The notes beneath the pieces are model-generated. The model saw only the letters and a program-made list of their open reading frames with translations, was not told where the DNA came from and did no database searches. Shown here piece by piece: positions 16,010-46,096 of a stretch of 61,341 nt of DNA. Origin of the DNA: Fibrobacterota bacterium (lineage in GTDB: Bacteria > Fibrobacterota > Fibrobacteria > UBA5070); contig JBDKGS010000001.1 in the NCBI GenBank assembly GCA_039798065.1, positions 1-61,341 on the forward strand, given 5' to 3'. A program made the translations under genes and the position numbers. Within the stretch, counting starts at the first letter, position 1; each line of letters opens with the position of its first letter.

Positions 16010-16109
16010 CGCATCTCCTATCAATCTTTCCAACAACAATTTCGTGCACAAATCGTTCCCCAATGCCACCGCAAGGAAAACGGCCTAGGGATTAGCGCCC
16101 AATCACCGT

Positions 16110-16603: not shown

Positions 16604-17155
16604 TTACTGATAAAATACCTTGAATGTATTGCCTGCACTATCTTTTGCGACACCTTCTACCAAAGGATTATAGCACGTGTAATCCTTTGGATTGCCCGGC
16701 TTACAATTTGTGTAAACTATTGATTCTGCCATTAACGTCAACCCCGAGTCGCACATATACACTTCCTTGCTGTGTAATCCTTTATTGTATGAATCACCGT
16801 CACAATAGCCGCGGCCATAGACAAGCTCCCATTCATCACGCAAGGTGAAATTGAAGACGCTCATCGTATCTCGACTGAGATTGTCGCCTAAGCTTCTAAT
16901 CCAAATGCAAGAACGCTTCTTGCCGCTTGAAAACACCAAGTCATCAACCCCTTTCTCAGATGCTCCAACCTGACGATCCAGGTATAAGTATCGGGCCCCC
17001 TGGTATGTTTTTTTGGGTTCTCGCGGAACGAAAATCACTCTGGAACTACATCCCAGAATCGGAACGAAAGAAAATACACATATAATCAGCAGCAACGAAA
17101 ACGGCATCACTCTATTGAATTGGTAAACACGCCCTGAAAATGTGAGAATTCTCAT
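16604..17155 (-). CDS. lipoprotein, candidate cognate immunity protein of the RHS toxin tip
   Basis: Start ATG overlaps the RHS stop (ATGA 17152-17155). Hydrophobic segment plus lipobox FSLLLIICVFSFVPILGCSS. The position immediately 3' of a polymorphic toxin is typical of immunity genes. The true start may be the internal ATG at 17107. Confidence 0.6.
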   Translation of the reverse strand: MRILTFSGRVYQFNRVMPFSLLLIICVFSFVPILGCSSRVIFVPREPKKTYQGARYLYLDRQVGASEKGVDDLVFSSGKKRSCIWIRSLGDNLSRDTMSVFNFTLRDEWELVYGRGYCDGDSYNKGLHSKEVYMCDSGLTLMAESIVYTNCKPGNPKDYTCYNPLVEGVAKDSAGNTFKVFYQ

Positions 17156-32300: not shown

Positions 32301-35300
32301 TGGCGTTGCCGACAACCGGACACGGATCAGCTGGGGCTTCGCACCTAGACTGATGGCCTGCTGGGCATCGAGCGACATCGCCAGTCCCGTCCCTGATCGG
32401 ATCGCGGAGATCCAGCGAGGAGCCAAATTTTTGGAAGGATCCTTGTGCAGGACCGCAGCATAAGAGAAGTGCGAAATCAACCCGGTCAGGACCACTTGCA
32501 AGTTGTCGAGCGACACCAAACTTCCGCTTGTGTCACCCGCGAACGTCAAACTGGTGGGAGCAGCTTCGAACTGTCCACCATCCGAAATTTCCCAGATCGC
32601 AAGTTCGGAAATCGCCCATGTCCAAGCTTCACTCCACTTCGCTCTTGTCGTAACAAGACTGTCCTTGGAGGCTGGACGATTCATCTGACTCAGGAGCTCC
32701 CTCAGGGTCATGCGGTACTGCAAGGTGGCAGGGGTGGAAAACCGCGTGCCAGAAGGCGACATCTTGATGACCGGCCCCATCGGAACAGCACCTGCCAGTG
32801 GCAGGCTCGCCAAATCCTGTCCAGACAGCGTATTCAGGACGATAGGAGTCCCGGAATTCGTCGAGTCAGGGGGCATGTTCAGCGTTGCACGTCCGTAGGC
32901 GTCAGCCACCTTCGTGGATGCGTTGGAGACGCGAGGCTGCCCCAGAACGAACGGAACCTTGGTCCACGTTGCCAGCGAGTCAGTAGCGTTCGCGTATACA
33001 CCTTGCACCAGGAATTGCGAGGCGCCTTGCTGCCCCGTCACATTCCACCAAGCTAGGTCGGGAACATCGCTTGGTGTCCAGGTGTTATCACCAGTCTTGG
33101 CCTTGTGAATTCCAACCTTGATCTGGACGCTGTCCGTCTGCGACACAGGAAGATCCAAATCGATCGCTTGGCCGTTGTTCGATCCAAAAACCCGCCAACG
33201 CACCAGCGAAAAGGTCTTACCCCCGTTTTGGATTGTATCGGCCAAACCACCTTGCAAGCGCACCCAACGCTGGCTTGAACGGTTATCGGACAGTCGCAAC
33301 GTCATCGATTGAAGATTCGATGTACTTCCCTGACCAAGGTCAAGATTCGGTGTCTGCCCGTCCGGGTAGTAGATCTCTACATTCCAGCGCGCTTGACTGC
33401 CAGAAAGCAACAGGTTTGGATTCAGGCCTAGCGAATCCTTGCAAAGGCTCGAGCCGGAATCGTGAACTCGCACGAAAGCGGATGTCACCCAAGGGCGATA
33501 GCATGGTGCCGCTTGTACCACGGAATCAGCCGCAGACGTGGGCACCAAGGAAATGTTCGAATGAACTGGATCGAACCCTGTCATTGGTGAGGGATTCATC
33601 GAATCCCGCAAGTAGATCCAGCCGCTACGATCTTTCAGGATTGGATCTTGTTGTGAACTCCAAGCTTGCAACGTGTCCGGTTGCAAAACATATCCAGCGG
33701 TCAGCACTGGCTTTCGGACCGTCAAATTCTGAGTCGCATTCTTCCAACGATCAAGCCAGGTGAACGTAGTGTCGCTTGAAAGATTCAAATTCCAGCGCAA
33801 CCGCGTCTGATCCGGAATTAACATCCCCCGCGCATCAAGTGGCGACACTCCCCAGGCCAAACTTTTGAGCCGAACAAAATTGTATAGAGAGTCCATTCGA
33901 CCCGTGACACCTCCGGTGAGAGGCTCCCCAGGAAGTCGGGGAAACAGCGACCAGAGAGACAGTCGGATGGAGTCCGCTGCCGTCGCGCCGAAATTCGTCA
34001 CACGAGGGATCCATAAGGAATCCGGCTGCAGGGTCCTGTGCACCTGGATCCAGGTGCGCCCCCAATTGGTGGTATCTCCGAATCCTGAGTCCTGCATGGA
34101 AGAAGCGTCGATATGGTCTGCAGTTGCACCCGGTAGAGGCCAATCGATCCCCACTGTATCCCAGACCACTCCACGGGTCCTTGGCGAAACAACCAAACGA
34201 GGTTCGAACCGAAGGTTGTGGTTGGAGTAGACCCCAGGATTCGACGGATCCAGGTGAATGTGGTGCGAATAGTCCTTGACGTAATCGACTTCCGAAAGAA
34301 TCTCTCCATAGGCATTTGCGCGGAAGACACGATGCTCCGAATCCAATGCGGGTCGGAACCAGTAACCAACCTGACCCTCCTTATAGCCGCCCAATGTCGC
34401 CAATGAATTATTGGTGCGCTCGCCATTCACATCGCCCCAAGGAAATTCATCTGTCCAGGAAAGCGAATCATTGGCGTATAGCATCTTGCGCACGACGGTG
34501 GTTCCGGTATCCCCCACATAGAACCACGGATTCATCCAGTTCAAGCGAGGAGGAACGGTGTAGGCCGTTTGAACCTTCATTCCCCAGGGATCGTCCATTT
34601 TCGTGTAATGATGATAGTTGTTACCAATTGAATATTTATAGCCCCAGTCATCCGAACAGCACCCGGTGAAACTCGGGTGTTTCCGCATAAACCAGGGCCC
34701 TTGCCCTGGTCGAAGTCGATATTTGAAATCATCGCTATTGCTCGTGCTATCTTTAGTGCTATCCGCAGGTATGATTCGATCAAATCCTACGCGAACAATT
34801 TCAGAATCATGAATCGACTGGATTCGATTATGAAATGATCCGTCTTGAGTAAGTACTTCATCGAATCGACGAGCCAGCGAGTAGAGTGGAACACCAACAG
34901 AGTCGTGGTAAATTTTTCGATACCCAGGGCCATAGACATAATATGACTGGGACCAATCCGTTGGTGCAGAAAGCCACCAAGCATCATCAATGACCCCTTT
35001 GGTACGTGGCCGAGTCAAATGGAAAGACGCTGAGATATTATCAGGTGCTGACCACGCACTTCCGTTCAGTGCACCAACAATGTTCGAGAAGTAATCCTGA
35101 AGAGTTACCGGGCTTTGAGGAATCGCAATTCCCGCATTCTTCATGTTGATATAGACTGCTGCCAAGGTTGAATCTTCACACGCCTGATAGGCGAACGCGA
35201 AAGTTGAGTCGATTCGAGGATCCCAAGTTCCCCAACGGAGTGCCCGACGGCCATCGGGATAGCAAAGACACCGCAGTGTCCAAGGCGACGGCAAACTGTC

Positions 35301-38300
35301 ATGCTGTGGCGAAGGACAACGAGCCCATTCCGGATGCTGGACCGTCAGAGCTCTGATCATAAGCCTTTCCAAGCTTTGGTCATACTCCACTGGCTGTGGA
35401 TCTCGATATGTTCCCGTCGAGCCAATTTCGTTGCAGAATTGAAAATTATTCGTGTCAGCAGTAACGTCATATCTGCTTTTATTGTACGCAAACAACGCGC
35501 CTATCGGATCATCTTCATGATATCCTGAATACCCCGAATTCGTCACAGAAAACGGATCAGATGAAACATCATAATTAAAGCTATTTACTCCGCTACCAAA
35601 AAATGCTTTTGGAGAAAAACGATACACCATGCTTTCACGCTGGATCTCTATCATCTCCGAATCCAAGTCCGGCTGATAGCGTGGCGGTATCCCGACGCGC
35701 ATCGTGCGGTCAATACCGTTCGCATTTGGAGAAACGACATTCATCCCGCTTCGAACGCCCATCCCTGTGTTCCCGGCGTTAGCCAACATCCAGAAAGGAA
35801 TCTGCTTCTTCATGACTTGGCGCACGCGATCGTCATGCCTTGTTCGTCCCCAAGAGAGATACCAACCATTGGACTCATAATCACCCGAATAATTTTCAAA
35901 TCCGGCGATTGAATTGTAATACTTGGCCCAATAAATCTGATAATCCGTCGGAAAATACTGTCGAACGACTTGTTTACCGTATGGCCTTATATCGAAGGTC
36001 ACATCCCGAGGAGGGAAATACAGCAGGTTGCCCGCGAATTGAGCCCGCAGCTTGTAATCGCTGATCAGGTCAGCAACACGCAAACCATTTTCGGTCTTTC
36101 CTTGCACGGTCAGCGAACTCGATGCGACCTGCCGAGCCAACATGTCGCCAAAGCGAACAGTGTCTCGATCGATTTCAAACCAAGCACCGCCTTGCTTCCG
36201 CTCTAAGCCAACCACCAAGCGACCAGTGGAAGCACCTGCGAACGGGCTTGAAGTGGGATCAAGCCACAATCGTCCAGCCTGATCCTCGCCTGTCCAACTC
36301 CCTTCCCAAGAGCTGACTGTCTTTTGCCCGACAACCGCTAAAATGCTGGACGTATCGTTCGGACCGCGGATCACAAGCCGTGTTGTGTCCAGTCGTGGAA
36401 GTGCAACCTTGCACTGCAGCTGCAACGCACCACCCAAGATCCTGGCCATCGAAAAATCCACGTACGACGGTGACACTTTGAGCAAGCTCGAATTCCAACT
36501 CAACGGGCTTGCAACCACCGTGAAGGGCGATTCCGCGATCCACTGCCCATCAAGATTTGCGGATGTCGCGCGCATCACGTACGATCCAGTTGGCAGCGCT
36601 TTGCCGTCGCTTCCATAACCGCCAAATTTTACCGACGAATCCATCGGCGAGCCTTGCCACACCCGTTGGGAAACAATCCCCAACCCAGTGGTCCAAACAG
36701 ATAGCGTCGAGCTCAGACCTGATGCCCCGCTCAGTAGCCAGCGCAAAGTGTCGTTCGCCGTGTCGCTGTCCGAGCGGTCAAGGATTCCTGAAAGCGGCGA
36801 GAGCAACGGCAACGAGATGGAACGATTCGCGAAGCCCGAGCGGTCAAGCGTGAACGTTGCACTGGCCGTTTGGACCAGCTCGCCTTTTCCCGTCCAAAGC
36901 ACCAAGGTGTAGAGCGTGTCCCGAAGGTTACGAGGATCGAACGTCGCGAGATTCTCGTCGAGTCCCAATCGGAGCGCGGTTCCGACCGAACCAGGAATGG
37001 ACGACAGGTCCTGAGTGATCCTGGCAGCACCTGGTAACGCTTTTGCCTCCATCACGGACAACAGCTGAGTCGAAGGGAGCGATTTCAAAAACGCCCAATT
37101 TGTCGAGGCTGGAACGGCTAGGCTACCAGGATGCAGGGAAAGTCGATAGACCGCAGTCCCTGTATCCTTCGGGCTGGGATCGGGCGCAATGCCACGAACA
37201 ATGATGGACCCACCTTTGGCCTTCAAGACCGTTCCGTTCGAGGGGTAACTGATCCTCGGTCCTACTGCGCCGACGAACATGACCGCGGAAGCTGTGGAGC
37301 TGAGACCTGATTCGGAAACGACCACGCTCCAGAACCAGGTTCCCGCCGTGCGCGCTTTGCTGGTCACTGGAATATCCGCCGTGCCGACGCCTTTGGTATC
37401 CAACCGAACCACCACGGAGTTCGCTTTGACGGAATCCGGTCCCGTGATCTTGATAGTGTCGTAGGCCAACGCCGTTCCCGAAACGTCCACATGAACGAAT
37501 GTCGATATCGGAGCCGACGCAGCTACTTGAATGGGAGTCACACTCGCCCTCACGGATGGCCCTGACCACCGGACGCGAACGGCTCCAGTCACACCCGTCA
37601 CAAATGCCGAAGAAGAATCCGATGCGTTCCCGGCTCCGTCCACAAGGGTCCATTTCGCGTCGTAGTCGCCTTCCGGCAACATGCTCCCATCGGACAATTG
37701 GCCGTTGAAGGTCCATTTGTGATCCGCGCGGCTTGAGCGTAGGAAGCTGGATGTGTACACCTGACCATTCCGAGCGAAGCGGACAACCAAAGTCACAGGG
37801 CGAGTAGAGTCTTTGTTGTCGATCGCACCGGTCAGATTCGCGCTCCAAGGAGTCGTCGGGCTGACCGTATTCGTGGACGAACTCGTGCTCCAGATCCCAG
37901 CTCCAACGGGGGCGATCGCGTCCAGCTCGAAGCCAGTGCTGTCAAGAACTGTCGATGGTCCACGAACGACCTGGATGAAGGCCTTCCACATTCCTGTCGA
38001 GTCCGGCGTGGTACCGTTGGAAATCTTCCCCGACCACTGGAGGGACAGCGTGCCGGATGGCAGAACCGATCCGGTCTGGAGGGTGAACGTGTCACCTTTG
38101 GGACGCTTGAGCCAGACTCTCCAGGCTGCGGATCCCGGAGCGAGGATACCCGCCGTTATCGATGCGCCAATCAATTTGGGCGAAAACAAGGCAGGATCGA
38201 CACGGAACGATCCGATTTCAGGATGGCCAGGCTGATGCAGCGAGCCCAAAAAACGAATCCCTTCACCAAGCGTTGCAGCGGCCGTCGCAAGCGTTCCGCC

Positions 38301-39299
38301 CAGCAACAGGTATTGCGAATTCCCCGGCGTTCCAGCGGACATCACATCGGCGATCGACGAGGCCAGTCGCTGTCGAACTCCTGGCGACAATCGCCAAAGC
38401 TCGCCCGAAGCTGGCGTCCATAGCAAGACCGAGCCTGAATGTAAACTGTCGTCTGGGAGCAAACGGCCGACCTGGGGAGCGGTGTCAACCACACCGGTTT
38501 GCCAGAAGATCCTCTTGTCCGCGGCAAGCAGGACCCATTGCCGATTCCCCGACGCCTTCCAAAAGCCCGCTCCGCTCCACTGCACTCCCGTGGGAAGATT
38601 CGGAAGCAATGTATCGGTTGCCAAGTTGGTTCCACTCACCCATACCTGGCTGCCATTCCACGAAAGCACGCGATAACCGCTTCCATTGGGCCAAACCTTG
38701 ACACCCAGCATCGTGGCGGAATTCGACGAACTTTGATTCTGCACAAGACGCTGCGCGCCCGTGCACATCATCCAGCCACGTTTTCCGGATGCCAGGTAGA
38801 CCAGAGTGTCCCCAGCCCACTCCACCGTGGAAGGGCTGCTTGCGAACCACGCCTGATGACGACTTGAATCTCGGAGATTGGAGCCATTCCATGCGCGCAG
38901 AAGGATGTAACCGGCTCCATTCACATCCTTGACCGGCATAGCAATCGAGTCGCTGATCCCTCCCTTGATCACCATAGCACCACCGATCGCGATCAGGTTC
39001 GGAGGTACAACTGTCGGTGCATTGGTGATACCCACGACAGCAGGCAAGCCTCCACCCTTGGGTAACGCTAGAACCCGTCCATTTGGGGAAAGAAACACCA
39101 GCTGAGAACCTGGAATGAGCCCGTCAAGAATGCCAAGGCTTGAGAAAGCCCAGCCGAGCACAGGAAGAAGTAGAGCGAGTAGAGCAAGGCGAGTTTTGTT
39201 TAGCACGGTGGCCGCAAATTTACCCTTGGACACGCTGTGCCCCAAGGAAATTTCTTCGCAAGTCATTGATATGCAACATTTTGCACACTTCAAGCCCAT
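23307..39299 (-). CDS. giant secreted multidomain protein (5,330 aa): Ig-like/FlgD-Ig-like, PKD-like and CBM-like modules
   Basis: Single uninterrupted 15,993-nt ORF. N-terminal h-region LALLALLLPVLGWAFS. Recurrent Ig-like module signatures (GDYDAKWTLVDGAGN, GSYVMRATSANLDG, GLYRALVEAIQVDG, GTYQVQLQG). Two PKD-like segments (SFDPERRQLSYQWW; SVDPLGHPLQFHWID). Three beta-sandwich CBM3/cohesin-like signatures (LRLRAFY, LRIRAEYW, VNLVYWI). The start could be 39299 or 39266. Confidence 0.88.
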   Translation of the reverse strand: MGLKCAKCCISMTCEEISLGHSVSKGKFAATVLNKTRLALLALLLPVLGWAFSSLGILDGLIPGSQLVFLSPNGRVLALPKGGGLPAVVGITNAPTVVPPNLIAIGGAMVIKGGISDSIAMPVKDVNGAGYILLRAWNGSNLRDSSRHQAWFASSPSTVEWAGDTLVYLASGKRGWMMCTGAQRLVQNQSSSNSATMLGVKVWPNGSGYRVLSWNGSQVWVSGTNLATDTLLPNLPTGVQWSGAGFWKASGNRQWVLLAADKRIFWQTGVVDTAPQVGRLLPDDSLHSGSVLLWTPASGELWRLSPGVRQRLASSIADVMSAGTPGNSQYLLLGGTLATAAATLGEGIRFLGSLHQPGHPEIGSFRVDPALFSPKLIGASITAGILAPGSAAWRVWLKRPKGDTFTLQTGSVLPSGTLSLQWSGKISNGTTPDSTGMWKAFIQVVRGPSTVLDSTGFELDAIAPVGAGIWSTSSSTNTVSPTTPWSANLTGAIDNKDSTRPVTLVVRFARNGQVYTSSFLRSSRADHKWTFNGQLSDGSMLPEGDYDAKWTLVDGAGNASDSSSAFVTGVTGAVRVRWSGPSVRASVTPIQVAASAPISTFVHVDVSGTALAYDTIKITGPDSVKANSVVVRLDTKGVGTADIPVTSKARTAGTWFWSVVVSESGLSSTASAVMFVGAVGPRISYPSNGTVLKAKGGSIIVRGIAPDPSPKDTGTAVYRLSLHPGSLAVPASTNWAFLKSLPSTQLLSVMEAKALPGAARITQDLSSIPGSVGTALRLGLDENLATFDPRNLRDTLYTLVLWTGKGELVQTASATFTLDRSGFANRSISLPLLSPLSGILDRSDSDTANDTLRWLLSGASGLSSTLSVWTTGLGIVSQRVWQGSPMDSSVKFGGYGSDGKALPTGSYVMRATSANLDGQWIAESPFTVVASPLSWNSSLLKVSPSYVDFSMARILGGALQLQCKVALPRLDTTRLVIRGPNDTSSILAVVGQKTVSSWEGSWTGEDQAGRLWLDPTSSPFAGASTGRLVVGLERKQGGAWFEIDRDTVRFGDMLARQVASSSLTVQGKTENGLRVADLISDYKLRAQFAGNLLYFPPRDVTFDIRPYGKQVVRQYFPTDYQIYWAKYYNSIAGFENYSGDYESNGWYLSWGRTRHDDRVRQVMKKQIPFWMLANAGNTGMGVRSGMNVVSPNANGIDRTMRVGIPPRYQPDLDSEMIEIQRESMVYRFSPKAFFGSGVNSFNYDVSSDPFSVTNSGYSGYHEDDPIGALFAYNKSRYDVTADTNNFQFCNEIGSTGTYRDPQPVEYDQSLERLMIRALTVQHPEWARCPSPQHDSLPSPWTLRCLCYPDGRRALRWGTWDPRIDSTFAFAYQACEDSTLAAVYINMKNAGIAIPQSPVTLQDYFSNIVGALNGSAWSAPDNISASFHLTRPRTKGVIDDAWWLSAPTDWSQSYYVYGPGYRKIYHDSVGVPLYSLARRFDEVLTQDGSFHNRIQSIHDSEIVRVGFDRIIPADSTKDSTSNSDDFKYRLRPGQGPWFMRKHPSFTGCCSDDWGYKYSIGNNYHHYTKMDDPWGMKVQTAYTVPPRLNWMNPWFYVGDTGTTVVRKMLYANDSLSWTDEFPWGDVNGERTNNSLATLGGYKEGQVGYWFRPALDSEHRVFRANAYGEILSEVDYVKDYSHHIHLDPSNPGVYSNHNLRFEPRLVVSPRTRGVVWDTVGIDWPLPGATADHIDASSMQDSGFGDTTNWGRTWIQVHRTLQPDSLWIPRVTNFGATAADSIRLSLWSLFPRLPGEPLTGGVTGRMDSLYNFVRLKSLAWGVSPLDARGMLIPDQTRLRWNLNLSSDTTFTWLDRWKNATQNLTVRKPVLTAGYVLQPDTLQAWSSQQDPILKDRSGWIYLRDSMNPSPMTGFDPVHSNISLVPTSAADSVVQAAPCYRPWVTSAFVRVHDSGSSLCKDSLGLNPNLLLSGSQARWNVEIYYPDGQTPNLDLGQGSTSNLQSMTLRLSDNRSSQRWVRLQGGLADTIQNGGKTFSLVRWRVFGSNNGQAIDLDLPVSQTDSVQIKVGIHKAKTGDNTWTPSDVPDLAWWNVTGQQGASQFLVQGVYANATDSLATWTKVPFVLGQPRVSNASTKVADAYGRATLNMPPDSTNSGTPIVLNTLSGQDLASLPLAGAVPMGPVIKMSPSGTRFSTPATLQYRMTLRELLSQMNRPASKDSLVTTRAKWSEAWTWAISELAIWEISDGGQFEAAPTSLTFAGDTSGSLVSLDNLQVVLTGLISHFSYAAVLHKDPSKNLAPRWISAIRSGTGLAMSLDAQQAISLGAKPQLIRVRLSATPSADTGKFALGEMVLTLHQGRIDTVVASLPSAWSQILSRTSGYLFARFDGGSSWSSIVVRDSSSKVSFGPVTVAPSFAHSNCSDTVRLSFNSNLSGIARAKVVNSSGTVVGNLLGSVVAGLDTLKWSVCNGATPAPKGLYRALVEAIQVDGTSVADSSLNLAVWGIDTLVPSLGAIQVPDPAMVPREVAGVSISATDTGWPSTTTWSAKIRRVFDERGVGADSVWRALATPIAASDSVRAVWDARNGLAWAPRGTYQVQLQGLAGSFKISRTALFGVDTETSAISLSLSSTATPYQGDRVPAALTGSNLASWKLRILKDSNQIGELTGVGSRNLSLQLLLRTDTLPSGRYKACAIGMGLLGSNRQVCQDLVIRPLVPRLASMTARPSDTLWSGWPEGTFQRHRNRVNTWVLTGQADRSGRLIRQISRNGLVVRQDTLPVLFGSFAWTWDGRVSGKLLPEGLVQIKVWADNATSSPDTSYSWSIQIHRVPRAFVWAGTVADTLAATLVNSLTANGVLTSRGDASAASEYLLDNPKGTLVMLDTAISSKLWSGRSAGGLIPWTLSGGNAVFAGAPALSAWRDSLGAVRKASDTDYARMSIYGGPTAGTSAAAQRSFARGIRYAGLRVDSLDDFSRRIWSHDTGSIMSWSLRLRWFDSIGVDVESGLLKHRVDSLHQLNQRGRDSVYLDSNLAGSLNYYPAQDAGLRKGQILELPQIAGIADASNAGQLIWTQLLVPDFGISRSDVRVAAAPVGARTSAQWRPIPGDSLKLSLSIRVRDGGMDTLPDSAVLDLKKIPGLWNDTVLVVKHLKTGTIALPQLPVKLPVNFPYGQASIAVSIRPFQLGTLAEQYLGNNSIQGQFLVGDIAAPGLAWKDRLDGQFAGLPLRLAPVAAGKPFFVTASAWSRHHQSRWSYAWELRSSQGNRLDGDSTTSTQSDSTRWVISGNIDPDATDGSMQSAMLRAHDAFNNTDSIQVRLRVDAVKPVLGAFTVGGRQGGLDTANGNLVTFRLPSNAKAVDTASIAISDNQQFGRVILVTSAGDSVSWLDTVKLGSLNLKRPVPVTKITPYDTVTSENVMSLVVRDLAGNDTTVRFQVISEPPPLPQIFHVRIPSNGGTLQYPTILDSFSSSLSRSRVDSMVRAGQGFVLRPIPKEDTENAIYGWTNGDSGIQVRQSHRGVPMDFVFAPQTNGQISLMSVTMDGNVVNTPPAAFQAYGDLLSQHPTQRLIEITPSKAHHRLVFRASDAYESDSLVLMLDDSLADLQVVDSSQDHNGLGADWGEVYMRRNVYQPSGISLPQTWDYWLIQRRNSMAPGERDNHIYRLLVDADGDSATGDTTNSIPRGFKGADVTLEWTNLTTADDGSAAQVTMYRWNDTLKHWIQSASGHEGLDLLAGYGFHQNEPDNPNTDSLGRGDQRLPSGVVAPASAGVTEIGVRSGLTNSLHPIRWAIVPDGFAGDTVRDSSGGMLKFEPRDYKPVNVDGDASEWWPNNTPINIEVRSKTDTLGDSLRVLIGLKNSSTRTIRGVNLVYWIMSDSIPTASLSEMPYEWRRMRVASTVVDSSKIVDTLRRLATWRISISCDSCMLPGGSYFSPVAFLKIKRNSPKASSALDWSNSFDSSIANPHFTAYDASGVILFGSEPPPRALRLPVARITPSGVLWTTVGQPLVLRADSSFDPERRQLSYQWWHSRTGTNNTSTIDTFVASRPGVYEVSLKVFDGSDLQRSAWATDSIYVQDTLGAMGARPVLADAVYLFDDQWDSKWQSWDIQDSAKTVDSLFGLDGTRHAINPARGTKLLSVPFDSASDYTYLRATCDSSYWNANGTPWCPDEIDLSKFTNLEFKIAMDAGLKDPIRVWLDRVMQNNGQGNGAREEDFAYVNSYLKDMSDPSHWQTVSIPLKEIYTEPQLRQGWLQLKFMTNTGRLTSAMRYRPRVLLDDIRLVKYKTVDSQIVTTRKTGLQVMANTIQYGDPSQLSMVVRLLNQGSLPLQLDSLRLRAFYQSKQFQTIGDTTWVGPDTVALDWNRGMPTDSTIDGPQLKMAALSHDSLVPPGLHSNHFGEIRWVGNTSGPDVGLKLQSTASASFWFAVENYSGRLAHSGLPANRIPMTSFDGVRSLAWSWPNLDSIDQFAPHIILDHLMSNGDWVRAWGLAPNEDSRTVSYWTPEDLVDPVMAIDSIHQIRAHITVNGNTTPGARLFASADASVDPLGHPLQFHWIDSIGRVIRVGSIDSFVVPDTGKIVLRLRAFDILDPTRVGLDSVTVWSTSSAKAIDSLQILTGSRGTWIPGSAWGSTSTAFPSWKASVDLVARDGSCPVRLLPIAGDSILSLPFSSVTLDGVRFDAPTAALDRNRFTHLEFWVASSREWPTRNHRDVPVRIWLTHQVQPGTGDNNHSSEEDFNLIQAYLPSSHLLRRWQKVSIPLDELYQTSLSANSDMTKLFLKFMLDNTASSEVDSARRADLYLTGIRFAKYDPGTRVTTRRIGAIAVGSAYPIPNLGSTRMDFRLLNVAPQPLFSDSLRIRAEYWNSSSVGSSFSNNIGAMGTDESVSSNWFVPQDTAWSFALSTDIVGRNANRGHQLTWASSVPLAAGKGWEAIWSLGFSDSVFSNGQSRQHFAPDASPSSALFDGIVIDYKQAGGWKRLWGTEAWESPDTVTYWAREGIRVPADTAMPSAAVVNLSGACVDSTGLIGTTTNTSIAAGDVAALPSTGRDPLLITQSVTDAGRKGVQVIQSKPDWNIKHTFIFDTAWVHHSVVDVEVYVDPAQMTGTAWAGTLMASTFDNQTWSTLELTPLSGTALDSAVGKWITLRFQYNPASYVLGRPFDLQFLANGHGNGTSSFKFDIGSVSVEGASGSGGDSTVVDTNYTAPSNSISMDSLSRFISCNQCAIVTDGSRKATAFAPVGGGTALAFTVPVDSSLTIARTLSFDLKSEFVLQGWEQAWFFVDDSPYRYNWDQYLANIPNSVSTGWTTINIPFSGSLYGLGTTAKFMLSVNANAPNGTRMLVDNVRWTP

Positions 39300-39386
39300 T
39301 CATTTCAGCGTCCTCAGAATTGAGACGAGCAACAGCTTTTGCTTCGGTCCGCTCAGAACAGACAATCGGACCACCTTCAAATTCGG

Positions 39387-40214
39387 TCATCCCCATCCCT
39401 CCTCCAAAAAGGTGTAACGGGCGGAGTCGTAGATCGGGGCGTCACCGAGCGTCGGCAACCCAACCTCTTCGGCTGGCAACCGGATCCGAACAGCGCTGGG
39501 AACGAACACAAAGTCCACTCGGCCCGCACTCGCACACCCCAACAGCTGTTGTCGTGGAAAACGGTCGCCGCAGGGAAAGGCCCCGCGCCCCTCGGGGTAG
39601 CCAAAGACGGGAATCCGCCAGACCTCGCCATCGCCGGCCTGGTCCGAAAACTCCTCGTGCAGGTACTTCGCTATCAGATGCCTGAGAACGCAGTAGACGC
39701 CGTGCCAGCAGCCAAGCGATGGGAGCCCATCATCCAGCACAGGACTTTGATAGATACCTCGGCAGCTTCGCTGGAAGTTCGCCAATGCTTGTGACGGCTG
39801 CCCTTGCACAAGATGACCAAGCGTGTTCGTGTCACAGCCCCAGTTCATTAGGGCTGCAACACCAGCAAGGGTCAACGACAACTCCTGGATCGAAGCAGAA
39901 GACGCAGCCAGCCGCCACGCCGCCGAATCGCACTCTAGGATGGATCGCACAGCCAAGGCTCGCCTGGCCGACAAGTTGTAACAGGCCTGCTCCGAGCTCG
40001 CGTCGTCGGCGTGCCCAAAGACGACCAAGCGAGCTCCAGACAGGGACGGCGAATGCCCGATCACCTGCGCGATGCTTTTGGCAAGCACACCATCTCGATC
40101 CAGACACGGCATGTGCCCACCCCGAACGAAGTGCCGACTGCCAAGGCTTACCGCAGCAAGCGACGCCAACTTCTTCTTCGACTTCGGGAAGATCAATAAC
40201 ACCTCTGCGCGCAC
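39387..40214 (-). CDS. OmpA-like (peptidoglycan-associating) domain protein
   Basis: OmpA C-terminal-like core LVVFGHADDASSEQACYNLSARRALAVRSIL (pattern GHxD..N..LS..RA.AV). A following segment resembles a PG_binding_1-type helix bundle (ALANFQRSC). No obvious signal peptide, so the start is uncertain. Confidence 0.6.
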   Translation of the reverse strand: MRAEVLLIFPKSKKKLASLAAVSLGSRHFVRGGHMPCLDRDGVLAKSIAQVIGHSPSLSGARLVVFGHADDASSEQACYNLSARRALAVRSILECDSAAWRLAASSASIQELSLTLAGVAALMNWGCDTNTLGHLVQGQPSQALANFQRSCRGIYQSPVLDDGLPSLGCWHGVYCVLRHLIAKYLHEEFSDQAGDGEVWRIPVFGYPEGRGAFPCGDRFPRQQLLGCASAGRVDFVFVPSAVRIRLPAEEVGLPTLGDAPIYDSARYTFLEEGWG

Positions 40215-40344
40215 GGAAGTTCGCTGTAGATCCGGAAATCATTCACCCGACCAGCTTCATCAGAGGCAGGCATCATTGCCCCTCCGCTCGACAATGATGG
40301 CGAGTACGAAGCCGCCTTTTCGCATCACGATCACTTCCGCTCCC

Positions 40345-41757
40345 TTATTTCCTGGGACGAGACGGCGATTCATCCTGACTCAAATTCAAAGGAAATGTCA
40401 CCACGGTAGACTCACCATCAAATGGACCGAAATGAATGTTCCTGGCCCCATGCATGAGTGCATTATCAAGCTGAATGCTGCCGGTTTCGGACGATACGAC
40501 CCGGACCGCGGAAACATCACCTGTCGGTGCGATAGTCAGCTGAAGCTTGATCCTGCCGCCCAGTCCAGTGTTCTGTTTGGCCAACTCCAAGAAGATCGAT
40601 CGTAGATCATCCAGGCTTCCACGTATGACTTCCTGAATCGACTCCATTGAACGCTTTGGCGGTGGTTTGATGTTCAGCAGCGGCACATCCTGTTCCACTC
40701 CTTGCATACTTGTCTTCGAGCCAGAAACCAGAGACACCCATCTCCCGTCAAACTCGTAGACCTCTTCTTGTGTCCTAGCCTGACCATGCGCCTTGGGAGC
40801 TGGAAATTTGACGGTGACACCGTTCTTTCGCTTGTTCATGGTAATGACAGGCTCGATGTCACATTCGGGAATCGCGATCATTCGCACGACTCCTGTGTCA
40901 TTGAACGCAATCAGCCGCAAGCCGCGATACGGGCAAGCACTGCCTCCAAGCGCGCCAGCGTTATCGTTCAACACGACGATCTGTTCAGCAGCCCCGGTCA
41001 ACCCCGTGAAATTGGAATTCACGTCAACTCCCCAAAGCTCACGGCTCGAGTCTGCCCATATAACCTTGCCCTGAACCAAAATTGCCGTCGCTTGGATGGA
41101 ATCTTTCTCGAAGTTTGTCTTGCGAAATTGGAGTGGCCCTGCGAGAGTCGCAACACCCACTGGATCCAAGTCTCCCGTGGCCTCCGAAACTTCTCCACTG
41201 ATCAGTGTTGCACGCATTGGCGAAACAAGACGCTGAGAATCAACAAGGACAGCTTTGACAACCGTGAGGCCGGCAACAGTGAACGGAGCACTGTAAATGG
41301 GCGAATTGATGCTTGGTTGAGATCCGTCGATGGTGTAGAAGATCTTGGCTCCAGGCCTTGATTCCATGACCACGGCACCAACGCCTTGCTTGTCTACCAG
41401 AGCATTGATCTTCGGCGCAGCGAATTCCGCTTCACCAGCCTTGGAAACTGAAAGCGTATCCATTTTCCCATAGCCGCGGAATCCATCCGATGGAGCAGGA
41501 AGGACCATCGACCGAACCAACTGAGCAGCATTTTCACGATCTTCTTTCGCCCCCTCTTTCGTGGCGGCCAGCTTTGCAGGTCGTGACGCCTGTGACGCTG
41601 CTTGAACTTGTGCCGTGGCGAAAAGAAAGGCGAGTACGGAAAAGCAACACGCGTTGGTAAACACAGAGATCTCCTTGTGAATCGCTCCGGGTTTACGGTA
41701 GGCCGAAGTACTCGGCGACGAACTCTTCACTTGAACCAGCTTGCTCCAAGATTTCAT
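40345..41757 (-). CDS. secreted protein with chitobiase/Fn3-associated-like domain and TonB/AgmX-PglI-type C-terminal domain
   Basis: ATG at 41757 preceded by GGGAGG. Signal peptide CCFSVLAFLFATAQVQA. AKIFYTIDGSQPSINSPIYSAPFTV (CHB_HEX_C-like). C-terminus IQEVIRGSLDDLRSIF..GGRIKLQLTIAPTGDVSAVRVVSSE..FGPFDGESTVVTFPLNL matches the TonB-C/AgmX-PglI pattern. Confidence 0.6.
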   Translation of the reverse strand: MKSWSKLVQVKSSSPSTSAYRKPGAIHKEISVFTNACCFSVLAFLFATAQVQAASQASRPAKLAATKEGAKEDRENAAQLVRSMVLPAPSDGFRGYGKMDTLSVSKAGEAEFAAPKINALVDKQGVGAVVMESRPGAKIFYTIDGSQPSINSPIYSAPFTVAGLTVVKAVLVDSQRLVSPMRATLISGEVSEATGDLDPVGVATLAGPLQFRKTNFEKDSIQATAILVQGKVIWADSSRELWGVDVNSNFTGLTGAAEQIVVLNDNAGALGGSACPYRGLRLIAFNDTGVVRMIAIPECDIEPVITMNKRKNGVTVKFPAPKAHGQARTQEEVYEFDGRWVSLVSGSKTSMQGVEQDVPLLNIKPPPKRSMESIQEVIRGSLDDLRSIFLELAKQNTGLGGRIKLQLTIAPTGDVSAVRVVSSETGSIQLDNALMHGARNIHFGPFDGESTVVTFPLNLSQDESPSRPRK

Positions 41758-41788
41758 TGGCGCCTCCCTGCCGTAACTGCGTACGAAA

Positions 41789-43453
41789 TCAGAAACGTCC
41801 TTCAATAACCAGCTGATGTCGCAGATACACACCAGCCCCCATGACAAACCTGACGAAGTCGGGATCGATGGAGATCTCGGATTTGTTGGATTCAGACGAG
41901 CTTCCGTCGGACGATGAGCTGCTGGAGCTCGATGATTCCTTGGACGTGAAACTGGTGAGCATGTTGTAACCGAACATCCCCTTGTATCCGATGGACACGT
42001 ACCTGCCAAGATCCACGGTCACCGCAGCACCCAATCCGCCGCCTGCCGCGATCGATGTCGGCGCATCAAAGCTGGGCGTTGTGGTCGTCCACACCCCACC
42101 TTCTGTTGCATCCTTGAGCATTGCCGAACGACCTCCGTTGCCGGAGTAGTATAGTGCACTTTTGAAGTCACTTTCCTTGCCGACCACGACCATATCCGCG
42201 CCGATCTGGAGCAACGGGCCGATGGAGAACCGCTCTGGAACCACGTACCATGTGAACCGTCCTTCGAGATCGAAATTCATCCAGTTGAAGTTGCCCCAGT
42301 TGCTGATCCCAAGATCGGCTCCCACACCAAATCCGGTTCCCTTCTCCCGCCAGCCACCGGAAAACGCCAAGCCAGCCAAGCCCCAAAAGTTCTTCGCACG
42401 ATAGTATGTGTTACCTGTCACTTTCTTCTGTGTGTACCCGGGAGCGAGACTCACGTACCAGTAGCTCATCCGTCCAGTTTCCCGGGGAAGTTCACGCAAC
42501 GCCTGCCCCGAGTCCACTGACGTTTCCCCTTCCACGATATGTGCGACGGAGACCTTTTCACGAACCTCAGTAAGCATGATCCGCCCCTTGGTTTGCTTCG
42601 ACACAGTCAGCACCTCACCGGTCTCCGGATCCCGAATCTCCTTGCCCTTGCTCGCGGCCTCGAACACATCACCGACGTTCAACCCGACATTCTTACCGCC
42701 GCGGATCCAGACCGTCTTGCCTTCCTTGCGGATGATCACCAACGACACACCTTGCTCGTCGGCCGGAAACAACTCCCGAAGGGACGCCCGCAAGTCTTTG
42801 ATCGCCAAGTCCATCGCCTTGGAGTAAGCGGCATTTGAACTTGCATCGGAGGTTGCCGCCCCACTGATCTGGTCACTGGCACCGACAACGGCACCTGTCT
42901 TGACGTCGATGAGCTTGTAGGTCAACGCTACCTGTGCGGAATAGATCGTGTTGCAGCCGGACTTGTCGCAGACGCTCTTGTTGGACACGGATGCATCGTA
43001 CGTGCCTGTCATAACATTGGTGGCTCCAGCCATCATTCCCAACTCCACTCCGTCCTGGGTCGCCCCCGAGTTTTGGAACTGCTGTTCCGAGGTAACGTGC
43101 TCCAGGGACGAGCGATCCAAAATCGTCCAACGACCGATCGAGGCCACAGCGGCTTCGACTTTGTCGGTCACGTATCTTCCCCACCCCGACGAGAGGGCTG
43201 CCGCTGAGGACCCACCTGGTTTGAAACCAACCACTGCGATTTTTGGCTTTTCCTTCTGCTTCGGCGCCACTGTGACAGCTATGGTCGGCTTTGTTGGAGC
43301 TGGATCAGCCGGGACAACAGGCGCTTCCGGCACCGAAACCTGTGCTTTGGTGCCCACCGGTACCCGCAGGTCGAATTCAGGCAAACTATCGGAAGCACTT
43401 GCGCTCCAGGTCATAATCGCGACCAGGACTGTTACTCGTGCACGAATGGACAT
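41789..43453 (-). CDS. CsgG/LpoB-like N-terminal domain fused to a predicted C-terminal beta-barrel (554 aa)
   Basis: ATG at 43453; signal peptide MSIRARVTVLVAIMTWSASA. PKIAVVGFKPGG..WGRYVTDKVEAAVASIGRWTILDRSSLEHVTSEQQFQNSG..GMMAGATNVMTGT follows the CsgG-family pattern. The C-terminal half has a G/Y/W-rich alternating-strand pattern ending ..HQLVIEGRF. Confidence 0.6.
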   Translation of the reverse strand: MSIRARVTVLVAIMTWSASASDSLPEFDLRVPVGTKAQVSVPEAPVVPADPAPTKPTIAVTVAPKQKEKPKIAVVGFKPGGSSAAALSSGWGRYVTDKVEAAVASIGRWTILDRSSLEHVTSEQQFQNSGATQDGVELGMMAGATNVMTGTYDASVSNKSVCDKSGCNTIYSAQVALTYKLIDVKTGAVVGASDQISGAATSDASSNAAYSKAMDLAIKDLRASLRELFPADEQGVSLVIIRKEGKTVWIRGGKNVGLNVGDVFEAASKGKEIRDPETGEVLTVSKQTKGRIMLTEVREKVSVAHIVEGETSVDSGQALRELPRETGRMSYWYVSLAPGYTQKKVTGNTYYRAKNFWGLAGLAFSGGWREKGTGFGVGADLGISNWGNFNWMNFDLEGRFTWYVVPERFSIGPLLQIGADMVVVGKESDFKSALYYSGNGGRSAMLKDATEGGVWTTTTPSFDAPTSIAAGGGLGAAVTVDLGRYVSIGYKGMFGYNMLTSFTSKESSSSSSSSSDGSSSESNKSEISIDPDFVRFVMGAGVYLRHQLVIEGRF

Positions 43454-43672
43454 GGATCTGCCTTTGGGAATGAGAAATGGCCACCTAGCAACTTCGATGA
43501 ACGCGGAATCAACGGCTGCTGTCGCGGCAAGCAGCCCACGAGATTCTACGTGATCGAGGATTCCAGAGAGAAGAGACGAGTCGCTCAAGGCGGGGTCTTT
43601 CCATGGTTGACGGGCTCATAGGAGTTGATCGACTCCAGTATAACTAGAGTCTGAATCAGGCGCAAGCCCAGA

Positions 43673-44113
43673 TTGGTAGCCCGAATCGCCACCGGTGCCG
43701 ACCTTTCCTGTGTGGACAATGACTGGCATGCACAAGCAACCGCGATCGGCTCCAAGATTCGAACGCATCGCCGCGCCAAGGGGATGACCCAGGCCGCCAT
43801 GGCCGATGCCTTGAAAGTCAGCTTCCAAAGCATCCAAGCATGGGAAAGCGGACAAGTCTTGGCCAGCATCCATCGCCTGACGGGTATCGCCAAAACCCTC
43901 GAAGTCCCACTCTCCGCCCTCCTGCCCGATGAACTGGCGAAGTCGGCCAAGGCCAAGGCTCCTCGCCAGAACGAGCTCCTGCTGAAACCGGTCGAGCTGA
44001 AAATGATCAAGAGCTACCGGCAGATCACGTCGAACAAATCCAGGACACTGGCGCGAAACATGATCAGCGCGCTTGCCGAAAACACCAGCAAGCCCAAGCC
44101 AGAGCGGTCGTAA
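43673..44113 (+). CDS. XRE-family helix-turn-helix transcriptional regulator
   Basis: Canonical HTH_3 segment IGSKIRTHRRAKGMTQAAMADALKVSFQSIQAWESGQVLASIHRLTGIAKTLEVPLSALL. Divergent from the CsgG-like operon. The start is non-ATG (TTG 43673 or GTG 43712). Confidence 0.8.
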   Translation: MVARIATGADLSCVDNDWHAQATAIGSKIRTHRRAKGMTQAAMADALKVSFQSIQAWESGQVLASIHRLTGIAKTLEVPLSALLPDELAKSAKAKAPRQNELLLKPVELKMIKSYRQITSNKSRTLARNMISALAENTSKPKPERS

Positions 44114-46058: not shown

Positions 46059-46096
46059 TTCAATTCCTCCGGTTACGACAGCCGCTCGTGCAGCTG

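What the first reader, a model, noticed from the sequence alone, without database searches (positions are those of the whole stretch)
39387..43453. Unusual three-gene envelope module: CsgG-like domain fused to a beta-barrel, TonB/AgmX-type CTD protein, OmpA-like protein
Seen: three co-directional genes directly upstream of the giant gene. The first combines a CsgG/LpoB-like N-terminal half (IAVVGF..ILDRSSLEHVTSEQQFQNSG..GATNVMTG) with a G/Y/W-rich, strand-patterned C-terminal half ending in F. The second ends in a TonB-C/AgmX-PglI-type domain. The third has the OmpA peptidoglycan-binding core but no visible signal peptide. Established: CsgG forms the curli secretion channel, TonB-type CTDs couple to outer-membrane partners, and OmpA-like domains tether complexes to peptidoglycan. 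Inference: together they resemble a trans-envelope scaffold, and the divergent XRE gene (43673..44113) may regulate it.
Basis: partly seen in the sequence, partly recalled or inferred. Interest (0 to 1): 0.6.

Follow-up and report, generated by a model that had tools for sequence, protein, structure and literature searches.

The report
Non-conserved envelope gene trio before giant-RHS operon
Three real cell-envelope genes sit in front of a giant surface-protein/RHS-toxin operon in an uncultured Fibrobacterota genome, but sister species keep that operon without them, so they look like a local assortment of accessory envelope genes and not a dedicated secretion machine.

Summary
Three co-directional minus-strand genes (43453-41789, 41757-40345, 40214-39387) encode the proteins below.

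1. A signal-peptide protein with a CsgG/LpoB/FlgT-type periplasmic module, a FlgT_C-like beta-sandwich and a C-terminal 8-stranded OmpA-type barrel ending in F.
2. An exported protein ending in an AgmX/PglI-type TonB-C domain.
3. A protein with no signal peptide that is an OmpA-like domain carrying a degenerate PG_binding_1 insertion.

The "trans-envelope scaffold for the giant gene" reading is weakly supported.
- The giant+RHS pair is conserved in at least two same-genus genomes with none of the three genes nearby. A third carries two giant homologues, also without them.
- The barrel-anchored CsgG/FlgT-like protein belongs to a widespread, unnamed family that stands alone elsewhere. This scan noted the same architecture earlier in other genomes.
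- No ExbB/TolQ motor gene is on the contig, and gene 2 looks cleaved, not membrane-anchored.
- Gene 3 has no export signal in any homologue.

Two sub-links do recur. An XRE regulator of the same subtype lies next to gene-3 homologues in three other loci. A gene-2 orthologue lies two genes upstream of a gene-3 homologue in one metagenome contig.

Verdict: real genes with correct domain calls, but not a conserved system. Interest is modest.

The parts
41789..43453 (-). Gene 1 (P0001, 554 aa): signal peptide, disordered linker, CsgG/LpoB/FlgT-N-like alpha/beta domain, FlgT_C-like beta-sandwich and a C-terminal 8-stranded outer-membrane barrel.
   Evidence: Translation. Pfam CsgG E 9e-11. AlphaFold2 pLDDT 85.3. 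Foldseek hits to FlgT, TolB-N, CsgG, PelC and 8-stranded OMPs. Pfam on relatives: CsgG 79/81, LpoB 63/81, FlgT_C 30/81.
42749..43258 (-). Gene 1, residues 66-235: periplasmic alpha/beta domain of the CsgG/LpoB/TolB-N/FlgT-N/PelC fold.
42491..42739 (-). Gene 1, residues 239-321: small beta-sandwich (FlgT_C-like in relatives).
41792..42466 (-). Gene 1, residues 330-554: 8-stranded OmpA/NspA/Ail-type beta-barrel. It has two long low-confidence loops (435-457, and the Ser-rich 507-525) and a terminal F.
   Evidence: AlphaFold2 strands. Foldseek target-normalised TM-scores 0.5-0.7 to 1p4t, 3dzm, 1qjp and 3qra. A related ~200-245 aa C-terminal barrel occurs in at least 34 of 149 representatives, most ending in F or W.
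40345..41757 (-). Gene 2 (P0002, 470 aa). Layout: an N-terminal hydrophobic segment followed by AQVQA/AS (a probable cleaved signal peptide), CHB_HEX_C_1/Fn3_assoc domain (129-178), an unassigned middle region (about 190-360) and an AgmX/PglI-type TonB-C-like C-terminal domain (368-461).
   Evidence: The only full-length orthologue is L010:2-1177, 33% identity over 357 aa, E 6e-51.
40375..40656 (-). Gene 2, residues 368-461: AgmX/PglI / TonB-C-like domain.
   Evidence: NCBIfam NF033768 E 7.8e-14, above its cut-off. This domain alone matches C-terminal domains in 230 of 296 Fibrobacterota genomes.
39387..40214 (-). Gene 3 (P0003, 275 aa): an OmpA-like domain with no signal peptide, split by a helical insertion about 135 aa long that is a degenerate PG_binding_1 module.
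   Evidence: Pfam OmpA at the cut-off. Alignment with relatives that carry a canonical PG_binding_1. AlphaFold2 pLDDT 89.5. Profile against PDB OmpA-family and Pal domains, E 7e-8.
43673..44113 (+). Divergent XRE-family regulator (146 aa). The same subtype lies beside gene-3 homologues elsewhere.
   Evidence: HTH_3 E 1.5e-11. Alignment A3 with the XREs of L059, L015 and L009 shows a shared C-terminal tail.
23307..39299 (-). Context: downstream 5330-aa signal-peptide protein. It is conserved with the RHS gene in sister genomes that lack the trio.
17152..23319 (-). Context: 2055-aa RHS-repeat protein whose start overlaps the end of the giant gene.
   Evidence: RHS_repeat E 1.5e-20. Homologues at 57% (G002) and 45% (G009) identity directly after the giant homologues.

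Best explanation
The trio is a strain-specific set of three envelope-related genes, probably co-transcribed. The three come from families with independent distributions. They lie between an XRE regulator and a giant-protein/RHS operon that is conserved in the genus. The trio is not a conserved, dedicated trans-envelope or secretion apparatus.

Gene 1
- Shown: its fold. It is an outer-membrane protein whose 8-stranded barrel replaces the lipid anchor used by CsgG, LpoB and PelC. The barrel holds a FlgT/LpoB/CsgG-type module and a beta-sandwich in the periplasm.
- Inferred: it acts as a sub-outer-membrane scaffold, possibly oligomeric.

Gene 2
- It is exported by Sec and probably released into the periplasm.
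- Inferred: its AgmX/PglI-type TonB-C domain docks on an envelope partner by strand addition, as TonB-C domains do.

Gene 3
- It is a derived copy of an OmpA-like/PG_binding_1 composite module. In Fibrobacterota this module is normally embedded in large multi-copy proteins that have no signal peptide, at least one of which carries a peptidoglycan hydrolase domain.
- It belongs with the XRE regulator, and is always followed by a gene for an exported protein.
- Its own location and role are not resolved.

The most defensible functional units are XRE + gene 3 (four loci) and gene 2 + gene 3 (two loci). Gene 1 is an independent passenger.
For: Anatomy.

Independence of the parts
- The exhaustive search finds full-length gene-1 relatives at 48%, 39% and 34% identity. 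Their contexts lack gene-2-like and gene-3-like genes: a short contig, a spot after a PPC-domain lipoprotein, and a spot among housekeeping genes.
- At least 34 of 149 family representatives share the C-terminal barrel.
- Three further barrel-bearing relatives also have no such neighbours.

Giant/RHS without the trio
- Giant N-terminal homologues occur only in same-genus genomes G001 (two copies), G002 and G009.
- RHS follows the giant in G002 and G009.
- Neither tblastn nor HMM/phmmer finds gene 1, gene 2, gene 3 or the XRE in the fetched flanks.
- No full-length gene-1 or gene-2 orthologue was found in those genomes (40 relatives searched for gene 1, 296 phylum genomes for gene 2), and no close gene-3 relative.

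Recurring sub-links
- XRE lies next to gene-3 homologues in L009/L020, L015-17 and L059.
- L010 carries a gene-2 orthologue, then a GYF_2 protein, then a gene-3 homologue, then a lipoprotein.
- The gene directly after every gene-3 homologue encodes a signal-peptide or lipobox protein.

Origin of gene 3
- The same module is found in 57 of 296 Fibrobacterota genomes. It lies inside 500-1300-aa reading frames; the members inspected start without a signal peptide. Pfam PG_binding_1 hits are present, and one member has a C-terminal SagB/Atl-type glucosaminidase.
Against: - The short gaps and the lack of terminator-like sites above chance fit one transcript running into the giant gene. The trio could therefore still serve that cargo in this strain.
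- The closest giant homologue, in G001, is also preceded by three co-directional genes. One is a GYF_2 membrane protein homologous to the one between the gene-2 and gene-3 homologues in L010. Non-orthologous but analogous accessory sets are therefore possible.
- The contexts of gene-2 and gene-3 relatives come from few, short metagenome contigs. L010 starts inside the gene-2 orthologue, so a gene-1 relative upstream cannot be excluded.
- The genomes compared are incomplete MAGs (66-96% complete).
Confidence: 0.6

Rival explanations
1. One reading: the three proteins assemble into a trans-envelope or sub-outer-membrane scaffold that anchors, displays or helps export the Sec-dependent giant protein and RHS toxin encoded downstream. 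Gene 1 would be the outer-membrane ring, gene 2 the TonB-like connector and gene 3 the peptidoglycan tether.
For: - The genes are co-directional with short gaps directly upstream of the giant gene.
- CsgG, PelC, PqiC and FlgT-type alpha/beta domains are known to form rings under the outer membrane (PMC13631591, read).
- The giant and RHS proteins have signal peptides but no recognisable outer-membrane export signal.
- The G001 giant homologue also has exported accessory genes upstream.
Against: - Giant+RHS loci in G002 and G009, and both giant homologues in G001, lack all three genes.
- The gene-1 family stands alone elsewhere.
- Gene 3 has no signal peptide in any homologue.
- Gene 2 has a probable cleavage site and no TonB-type anchor, no Pro-rich spacer, and no ExbB/TolQ gene on the contig.
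- An 8-stranded barrel is too small to be a channel.
Confidence: 0.15
2. Gene 3 is a relic or derivative of a family of peptidoglycan-targeting proteins with no signal peptide that leave the cell by a non-Sec route, most plausibly the type VI secretion system of this genus. It would act outside the cytoplasm, on peptidoglycan of the cell itself or of a target. Genes 1 and 2 are unrelated neighbours.
For: - The gene-3 module is embedded in multi-copy 500-1300-aa proteins, often in tandem, that have no signal peptide. One has an Atl/SagB-type glucosaminidase domain, E 3e-44 to PDB 6fxo.
- Genomes of the genus encode TssC (E about 1e-126), VgrG and PAAR.
- In L009 and L015 the gene-3 homologue lies beside members of that larger family. 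In L009 a YkuD-like protein with no signal peptide is also nearby.
- Cys positions are conserved across the family. This would fit disulfides, but that is inference only.
Against: - The large-family genes are not adjacent to T6SS, VgrG or PAAR genes in the genomes checked.
- Gene 3 lacks both the N-terminal region and the C-terminal variable domain of the larger proteins.
- Its PG_binding_1 motif is degenerate.
- No secretion has been shown.
Confidence: 0.15
3. XRE + gene 3 is a cytoplasmic sensor-regulator pair. The OmpA-like protein, which has no signal peptide, would bind a cell-wall fragment in the cytoplasm and modulate the XRE repressor. That would switch on the downstream envelope and toxin genes when the wall is damaged.
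For: - Gene 3 and all its close homologues lack export signals.
- An XRE of one subtype is adjacent in four loci, in either orientation.
- The Arg of the OmpA-like DAP-binding pair is invariant (R85), and the Asp is present in this copy. The residue assignment rests on my knowledge of OmpA-like domains.
Against: - No precedent is known to me for a cytoplasmic OmpA-like sensor.
- The Asp is not conserved in several homologues.
- No shared operator motif was found in the intergenic regions.
- This is pure inference from synteny.
Confidence: 0.08

Closest known systems
FlgT (Vibrio polar-flagellum H-ring protein; PDB 3w1e, 8z5n)
   Same: It is the best structural match to the N-terminal two domains of gene 1 (Foldseek E 2e-10). 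Pfam FlgT_C is detected in 30 of 81 relatives. It is a periplasmic module that sits under the outer membrane.
   Different: FlgT is soluble, has no membrane barrel and is encoded with flagellar genes. Gene 1 carries its own 8-stranded barrel and has no flagellar neighbours.
CsgG (curli channel), and the related ring lipoproteins PelC, PqiC and LpoB
   Same: Gene 1 shares the alpha/beta core: Pfam CsgG E 9e-11, with Foldseek hits to 4uv2 and 5t10. These proteins are held at the inner face of the outer membrane, and several form rings (PMC13631591).
   Different: Gene 1 has no lipobox Cys. The Pfam match stops at model position 158 of 210. No csgE/F/A/B or pel genes are nearby. Anchoring is by a fused OmpA-type barrel, not by lipid.
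OmpA N-terminal domain / NspA / Ail / TtoA (8-stranded outer-membrane barrels)
   Same: The C-terminal 225 residues of gene 1 superpose on these barrels with target-normalised TM-scores of 0.5-0.7. The protein ends in an aromatic residue.
   Different: The domain order is reversed relative to OmpA, with the periplasmic domain first and the barrel last. There is no Pfam barrel hit.
GltG/GltJ (PglI/AgmX) of the Myxococcus Agl-Glt gliding machine, and TonB
   Same: The C-terminal domain of gene 2 passes the NCBIfam AgmX/PglI model. In Glt and TonB systems this domain links to outer-membrane partners (PMC3169522).
   Different: - GltG and GltJ are bitopic inner-membrane proteins with cytoplasmic FHA or GYF domains and work with AglRQS. 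TonB has an anchor, a Pro-rich spacer and ExbBD.
- Gene 2 has a probable cleavable signal peptide and folded beta domains in place of a spacer. No motor gene is on its contig.
Pal / OmpA C-terminal domain / TpgA (peptidoglycan tether of the adhesin AtaA) / TagL
   Same: Gene 3 has the OmpA-like core motif and fold. Like TpgA, it is encoded next to a giant surface protein. The TpgA comparison rests on my own knowledge.
   Different: All of these are exported (signal peptide, lipobox or transmembrane segment), and gene 3 is not. Gene 3 also carries a helical insertion about 135 aa long, derived from PG_binding_1.

Membership tests
CsgG curli secretion channel | Sequence match to the CsgG family model | tested here: met
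   Pfam PF03783 E 9e-11, 41.9 bits against a cut-off of 20.8. Only model positions 2-158 of 210 are covered.
CsgG curli secretion channel | Lipoprotein signal (lipobox Cys) for outer-membrane anchoring | tested here: not met
   The N-terminus MSIRARVTVLVAIMTWSASA/SDS has no Cys, and an SPase I-type ASA site is likely (read by eye).
CsgG curli secretion channel | Genomic association with csgE/csgF and curli subunits | tested here: not met
   The neighbours are an XRE gene, a TonB-C protein and an OmpA-like protein. No curli families appear in the Pfam scans of the surrounding genes.
CsgG curli secretion channel | Two transmembrane hairpins per subunit that build the 36-stranded pore | tested here: inconclusive
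   The model shows a compact alpha/beta domain with a polar, Cys-containing hairpin at 146-183. The only membrane-like sheet is the separate C-terminal barrel. No oligomer model was made.
FlgT-like periplasmic scaffold | FlgT N-domain plus following beta domain fold | tested here: met
   Foldseek 3w1e E 2e-10 and 8z5n E 2.8e-10. FlgT_C is found in 30 of 81 relatives.
FlgT-like periplasmic scaffold | Association with flagellar basal-body genes | tested here: not met
   No flagellar families appear among the window genes scanned. The rest of the genome was not searched for flagellar genes.
8-stranded OmpA-type outer-membrane barrel | Eight antiparallel amphipathic strands closing a barrel, with a C-terminal aromatic residue | tested here: met
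   AlphaFold2 strands at 330-553 with pLDDT mostly above 90. Foldseek to 1p4t, 3dzm, 1qjp and 3qra. Terminal F.
TonB | C-terminal TonB_C domain | tested here: inconclusive
   Pfam TonB_C scores 20.2 bits (cut-off 24.6) and TIGR01352 scores 25.1 (cut-off 27.1), both below cut-off. The related AgmX/PglI model passes at 51.6 bits against 40.
TonB | Uncleaved N-terminal membrane anchor, Pro-rich spacer and an ExbB/ExbD partner | tested here: not met
   - The hydrophobic segment is followed by AQVQA/AS (read by eye).
- Folded CHB_HEX_C and unassigned domains take the place of a spacer.
- Six MotA_ExbB genes are in the genome, none on contig C1.
GltG/GltJ (PglI/AgmX) gliding transducers | AgmX/PglI C-terminal domain | tested here: met
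   NF033768 E 7.8e-14, above its cut-off.
GltG/GltJ (PglI/AgmX) gliding transducers | Bitopic protein with cytoplasmic FHA or GYF/ZnR domain, encoded with glt/agl genes | tested here: not met
   Gene 2 has no such domains and scores only 27 bits against the 650-bit cut-off of the GltG equivalog. The required features are taken from PMC3169522.
OmpA-like peptidoglycan-binding domain (Pal/OmpA_C) | Family model and fold | tested here: met
   Pfam scores 27.2 bits, equal to the cut-off. The family profile hits OmpA-family and Pal domains in the PDB at E 7e-8. The model's first 80 residues superpose on 3td5 at rmsd 2.5, but Foldseek E is only 0.12.
OmpA-like peptidoglycan-binding domain (Pal/OmpA_C) | Conserved Asp/Arg pair that binds meso-DAP | tested here: inconclusive
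   R85 is invariant in 39 sequences. The Asp (D70) is present here but replaced by Ser in many relatives. The residue assignment comes from my knowledge of the motif GH(T/A)D...LS..RA.
OmpA-like peptidoglycan-binding domain (Pal/OmpA_C) | Export to the periplasm (signal peptide, lipobox or transmembrane segment) | tested here: not met
   The stop-to-stop frame adds only 8 residues upstream. The domain's first strand starts at residue 17. No homologue has a signal peptide.

The most novel reading that the evidence does not exclude
The recurring pair of an XRE regulator and an OmpA-like/PG_binding-derived protein with no signal peptide is a new kind of cytoplasmic cell-wall-fragment sensor. It would switch on neighbouring genes for exported surface, envelope or toxin proteins: here genes 1 and 2, the giant protein and the RHS toxin. 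Alternatively, the trio is a strain-specific docking apparatus for a Sec-dependent giant-protein/RHS delivery route that has no described outer-membrane step.
Probability: 0.1. Interest if true: 0.7.

Novelty: new member of a known kind. Interest (0 to 1): 0.33.

Why it matters
- The result removes an attractive but unsupported story, that a CsgG-like channel, a TonB-like connector and an OmpA tether form a new secretion machine for a giant toxin locus. The giant+RHS operon persists in sister species without these genes.
- It documents again that periplasmic FlgT/CsgG/LpoB-type modules are often anchored by a fused 8-stranded barrel and not by a lipid. This is a large protein family with no name and no Pfam model for the barrel.
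- It brings to light a Fibrobacterota-wide, multi-copy family of OmpA/PG_binding_1 proteins with no signal peptide, some carrying peptidoglycan hydrolase domains. A small XRE-linked offshoot of that family is worth a localisation experiment.

Tried and rejected
- The word-index homology search for gene 1 found only the query itself. The exhaustive search was needed.
- The word-index search for gene 2 found only Fn3_assoc-domain matches. The single orthologue came from a contig fetched for gene 3.
- A complex prediction of gene 1 (residues 23-554) with gene 2 (56-470) gave no verdict: score 0.10 against a mark of 0.32. It says nothing either way.
- No sigma-70-type promoter was found, and terminator-like sites did not exceed chance. 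This phylum may use other promoter signals.
- A search for shared operator-like words or palindromes in the XRE/gene-3 intergenic regions of four loci found nothing convincing.
- The gene fragment after the closest gene-1 relative (L012) is not gene-2-like.
- Type VI linkage of the larger OmpA/PG_binding_1 family: TssC, VgrG and PAAR genes exist in the genus but are not adjacent to family members. The link remains a hypothesis.
- The ESM Atlas look-ups added nothing beyond OmpA/PG_binding_1 and TonB_C leads.
- I considered a curli-type channel, a TonB energy transducer and a TpgA-like tether as identities. Each fails a defining feature; see the membership tests.

Full report
**Where and what.** The window comes from a metagenome-assembled genome with 417 contigs, 82% complete. 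On the minus strand the genes run as follows:
- gene 1, 43453-41789
- gene 2, 41757-40345
- gene 3, 40214-39387
- a 5330-aa gene, 39299-23307
- a 2055-aa RHS gene, 23319-17152

The gaps between the first four are 31, 130 and 87 nt. A divergent XRE gene lies at 43673-44113 (HTH_3, E 1.5e-11). Terminator-like sites in the scanned region (38900-44300) do not exceed chance, and no sigma-70-type promoter was found. Co-transcription is therefore plausible but not shown.

**Gene 1.**
- Pfam CsgG passes its cut-off (E 9e-11, residues 62-206). LpoB is sub-threshold.
- An AlphaFold2 model built on 81 relatives is confident, with pLDDT 85.3 and pTM 0.74. It shows a signal-peptide helix, a disordered linker (23-65), an alpha/beta domain (71-234), a beta-sandwich (239-321) and a C-terminal sheet (330-553) with two long low-confidence loops.
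- Foldseek places the N-terminal half closest to the Vibrio H-ring protein FlgT (E 2e-10), then TolB-N, CsgG and PelC. The C-terminal half matches the 8-stranded barrels TtoA, Ail, NspA and OmpA.
- In relatives, Pfam finds CsgG in 79 of 81, LpoB in 63 and FlgT_C in 30. Nothing covers the barrel.
- The signal peptide has no lipobox Cys, and the protein ends in F.
- Gene 1 is therefore a FlgT/LpoB/CsgG-type periplasmic module held at the outer membrane by its own small barrel. It is not a curli-type channel. A recent paper groups PqiC-, LptE-, PelC- and CsgG-like lipoproteins as sharing this alpha/beta core (PMC13631591).

**How common is gene 1's architecture, and what are its neighbours?**
- The exhaustive search gives 1265 hits at E <= 0.001. 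Full-length relatives are at 48%, 39% and 34% identity.
- An iterated profile of the barrel region recovers 34 of the 149 best cluster representatives. Most end in F or W.
- The contexts of six distinct relatives (L012-L014, L085-L089) show no gene-2-like or gene-3-like neighbour, by precomputed Pfam or by my own HMM/phmmer scans.
- Forty relatives of this genome have only CsgG-domain paralogues and no orthologue.
- This scan has described barrel-anchored FlgT/CsgG-like proteins in other genomes before. I treat those notes as agreement, not as evidence.

**Gene 2.**
- The C-terminal 90 residues pass the NCBIfam AgmX/PglI model (E 7.8e-14). TonB_C models fall just below their cut-offs. Residues 129-178 are a CHB_HEX_C_1/Fn3_assoc domain.
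- The start at 41757 has a GGGAGG box upstream. An internal GTG with an AAGGAG box would give a shorter signal peptide. In either case the hydrophobic segment ends in AQVQA/AS, which looks like a cleavage site and not a TonB anchor (by eye).
- The C-terminal domain alone matches 230 of 296 Fibrobacterota genomes. No full-length orthologue was found there.
- The only orthologue is the truncated first gene of metagenome contig L010, at 33% identity over 357 aa, E 6e-51.
- The genome has six MotA/ExbB-family genes, none on this contig.
- GltG and GltJ, the namesakes of the domain, are bitopic proteins with cytoplasmic domains that work with AglRQS (PMC3169522). Gene 2 lacks those features.

**Gene 3.**
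- Pfam OmpA scores exactly at its cut-off.
- Close homologues at 40-59% identity come from about nine contigs.
- A profile search of 296 Fibrobacterota genomes finds the same module of about 250 residues in 57 genomes, often in several or tandem copies. It lies inside open frames of 500-1300 aa.
- Pfam sees OmpA plus a canonical PG_binding_1 between its halves in most of the eight larger proteins scanned. The ones I inspected start without a signal peptide. One ends in an Atl/SagB-type glucosaminidase.
- The 39-sequence alignment shows gene 3 and its close relatives as a derived branch. The OmpA core motif is kept, with G67 and R85 invariant, but the PG_binding_1 motif is degenerate and extra Cys, His and Trp positions are fixed.
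- The AlphaFold2 model is confident, pLDDT 89.5 and pTM 0.88. Its best Foldseek rows are OmpA-like peptidoglycan-binding domains, but only at E 0.12 because of the insertion. The family profile hits OmpA-family and Pal domains in the PDB at E 7e-8.
- No member has a signal peptide. The reading frame allows only 8 more residues upstream.

**Which links recur?**
- XRE proteins with the same HTH plus C-terminal tail lie directly beside gene-3 homologues in L009/L020 (same direction), L015-L017 (divergent) and L059 (divergent).
- In L010 the order is gene-2 orthologue, GYF_2 membrane protein, gene-3 homologue, and an 884-aa FGE-sulfatase lipoprotein.
- In every locus the gene after the gene-3 homologue encodes a protein with a signal peptide or lipobox. 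The proteins themselves are unrelated in kind: the giant protein here, lipoproteins in L010 and L059, and a 253-aa protein in L009.

**The decisive test: is the trio tied to the giant/RHS genes?**
- The first 800 residues of the giant protein have homologues only in three same-genus genomes: G001 (two copies), G002 and G009.
- In G002 and G009 the RHS gene follows the giant, at 57% and 45% identity.
- In the 10-13 kb upstream of all four giant homologues, and in the fetched downstream flanks in G002 and G009, neither tblastn nor profile searches find gene 1, gene 2, gene 3 or the XRE.
- G006, of the same genus, has two gene-3 loci and no detected giant homologue.
- One caveat applies. The G001 giant is preceded by three other co-directional genes, including a GYF_2 membrane protein homologous to the L010 one (31% over 299 aa). 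Accessory genes of a similar theme may therefore be interchangeable.

**Reading.**
- The trio is best seen as a local combination. It consists of a passenger outer-membrane scaffold protein (gene 1), a rare periplasmic TonB-C protein that has been seen with gene 3 once more (gene 2), and an XRE-linked, derived OmpA/PG_binding module of unresolved location (gene 3).
- How gene 3 could reach peptidoglycan is open. The genus encodes a type VI system. That would suit the larger family of peptidoglycan-targeting proteins with no signal peptide, but no adjacency supports it.
- A complex prediction for genes 1 and 2 gave no verdict.

**Novelty and score.**
- The domain calls are correct, and each protein is a new member of a known superfamily.
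- The barrel-anchored FlgT/CsgG-like family is uncharacterised but widespread, and this scan has already noticed it.
- The XRE + gene-3 pairing is a small new observation.
- The proposed three-part machine is not supported by conservation. Interest is 0.33.

Noticed in passing
G004:C1:622000-676000 (L052-L054); G007:C1:1688000-1708000 (L055); own genome contigs C193, C64, C3, C142: A multi-copy, often tandem Fibrobacterota family of 500-1300-aa proteins with no signal peptide. They have a conserved N-terminal 'GPSLLD' motif region and an OmpA-like domain split by PG_binding_1. The C-termini are variable, and one is an Atl/SagB-type glucosaminidase. They are candidate non-Sec (possibly type VI) peptidoglycan-targeting effectors.
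   Followed up: partly
G000:C76:1906-2802 and C337:3104-3994; G004:C1:552361-570856; G007:C1:471730-489576: The genus encodes a type VI secretion system (TssC E about 1e-126, VgrG about 1e-52) plus several PAAR genes. I found only one paper mentioning both Fibrobacterota and type VI secretion, and only in passing.
   Followed up: partly
L081:5466-6521 (G001:C574) and L010:1217-2101: A GYF_2-domain membrane protein family (31% identity over 299 aa) turns up in two places. One copy lies between the gene-2 and gene-3 homologues in L010. The other lies three genes upstream of the closest giant-protein homologue in G001.
   Followed up: partly
L082:4607-5698 (G001:C444): A PAAR-domain protein with Ig-like domains lies about 6 kb upstream of a second giant-protein paralogue. 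This hints at a type VI connection for that copy, even though the giant proteins carry Sec signal peptides.
   Followed up: no
L009:2071-2832, L019:710-1600 and the C-terminal half of L015:9974-11569: The gene after the gene-3 homologue in these loci, fused to it in L015, encodes a signal-peptide protein. By eye, its C-terminus resembles the conserved tail of tail-fibre/endosialidase-chaperone-type proteins. L009 also has a YkuD-like protein with no signal peptide.
   Followed up: no
window 3788-5407, 1355-2176, 45351-46349, 12841-13683: Several mobile-element or foreign-DNA-type genes surround the locus: an IS66 transposase, a Dam-type methyltransferase in a low-GC cassette, a ParA-like ATPase and a PolB-exonuclease-like gene. 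The region is mosaic.
   Followed up: no
window 14000-18000: GC drops to 0.46-0.49 over the RHS C-terminal tip and the small ORFs downstream. This is typical of a swapped toxin/immunity cassette.
   Followed up: no
L085:139-6554: Another barrel-anchored CsgG-like protein (P0012) is followed by a WG_beta_rep protein, an 853-aa protein and an FGE-sulfatase protein. An FGE-sulfatase lipoprotein also follows the gene-3 homologue in L010.
   Followed up: no
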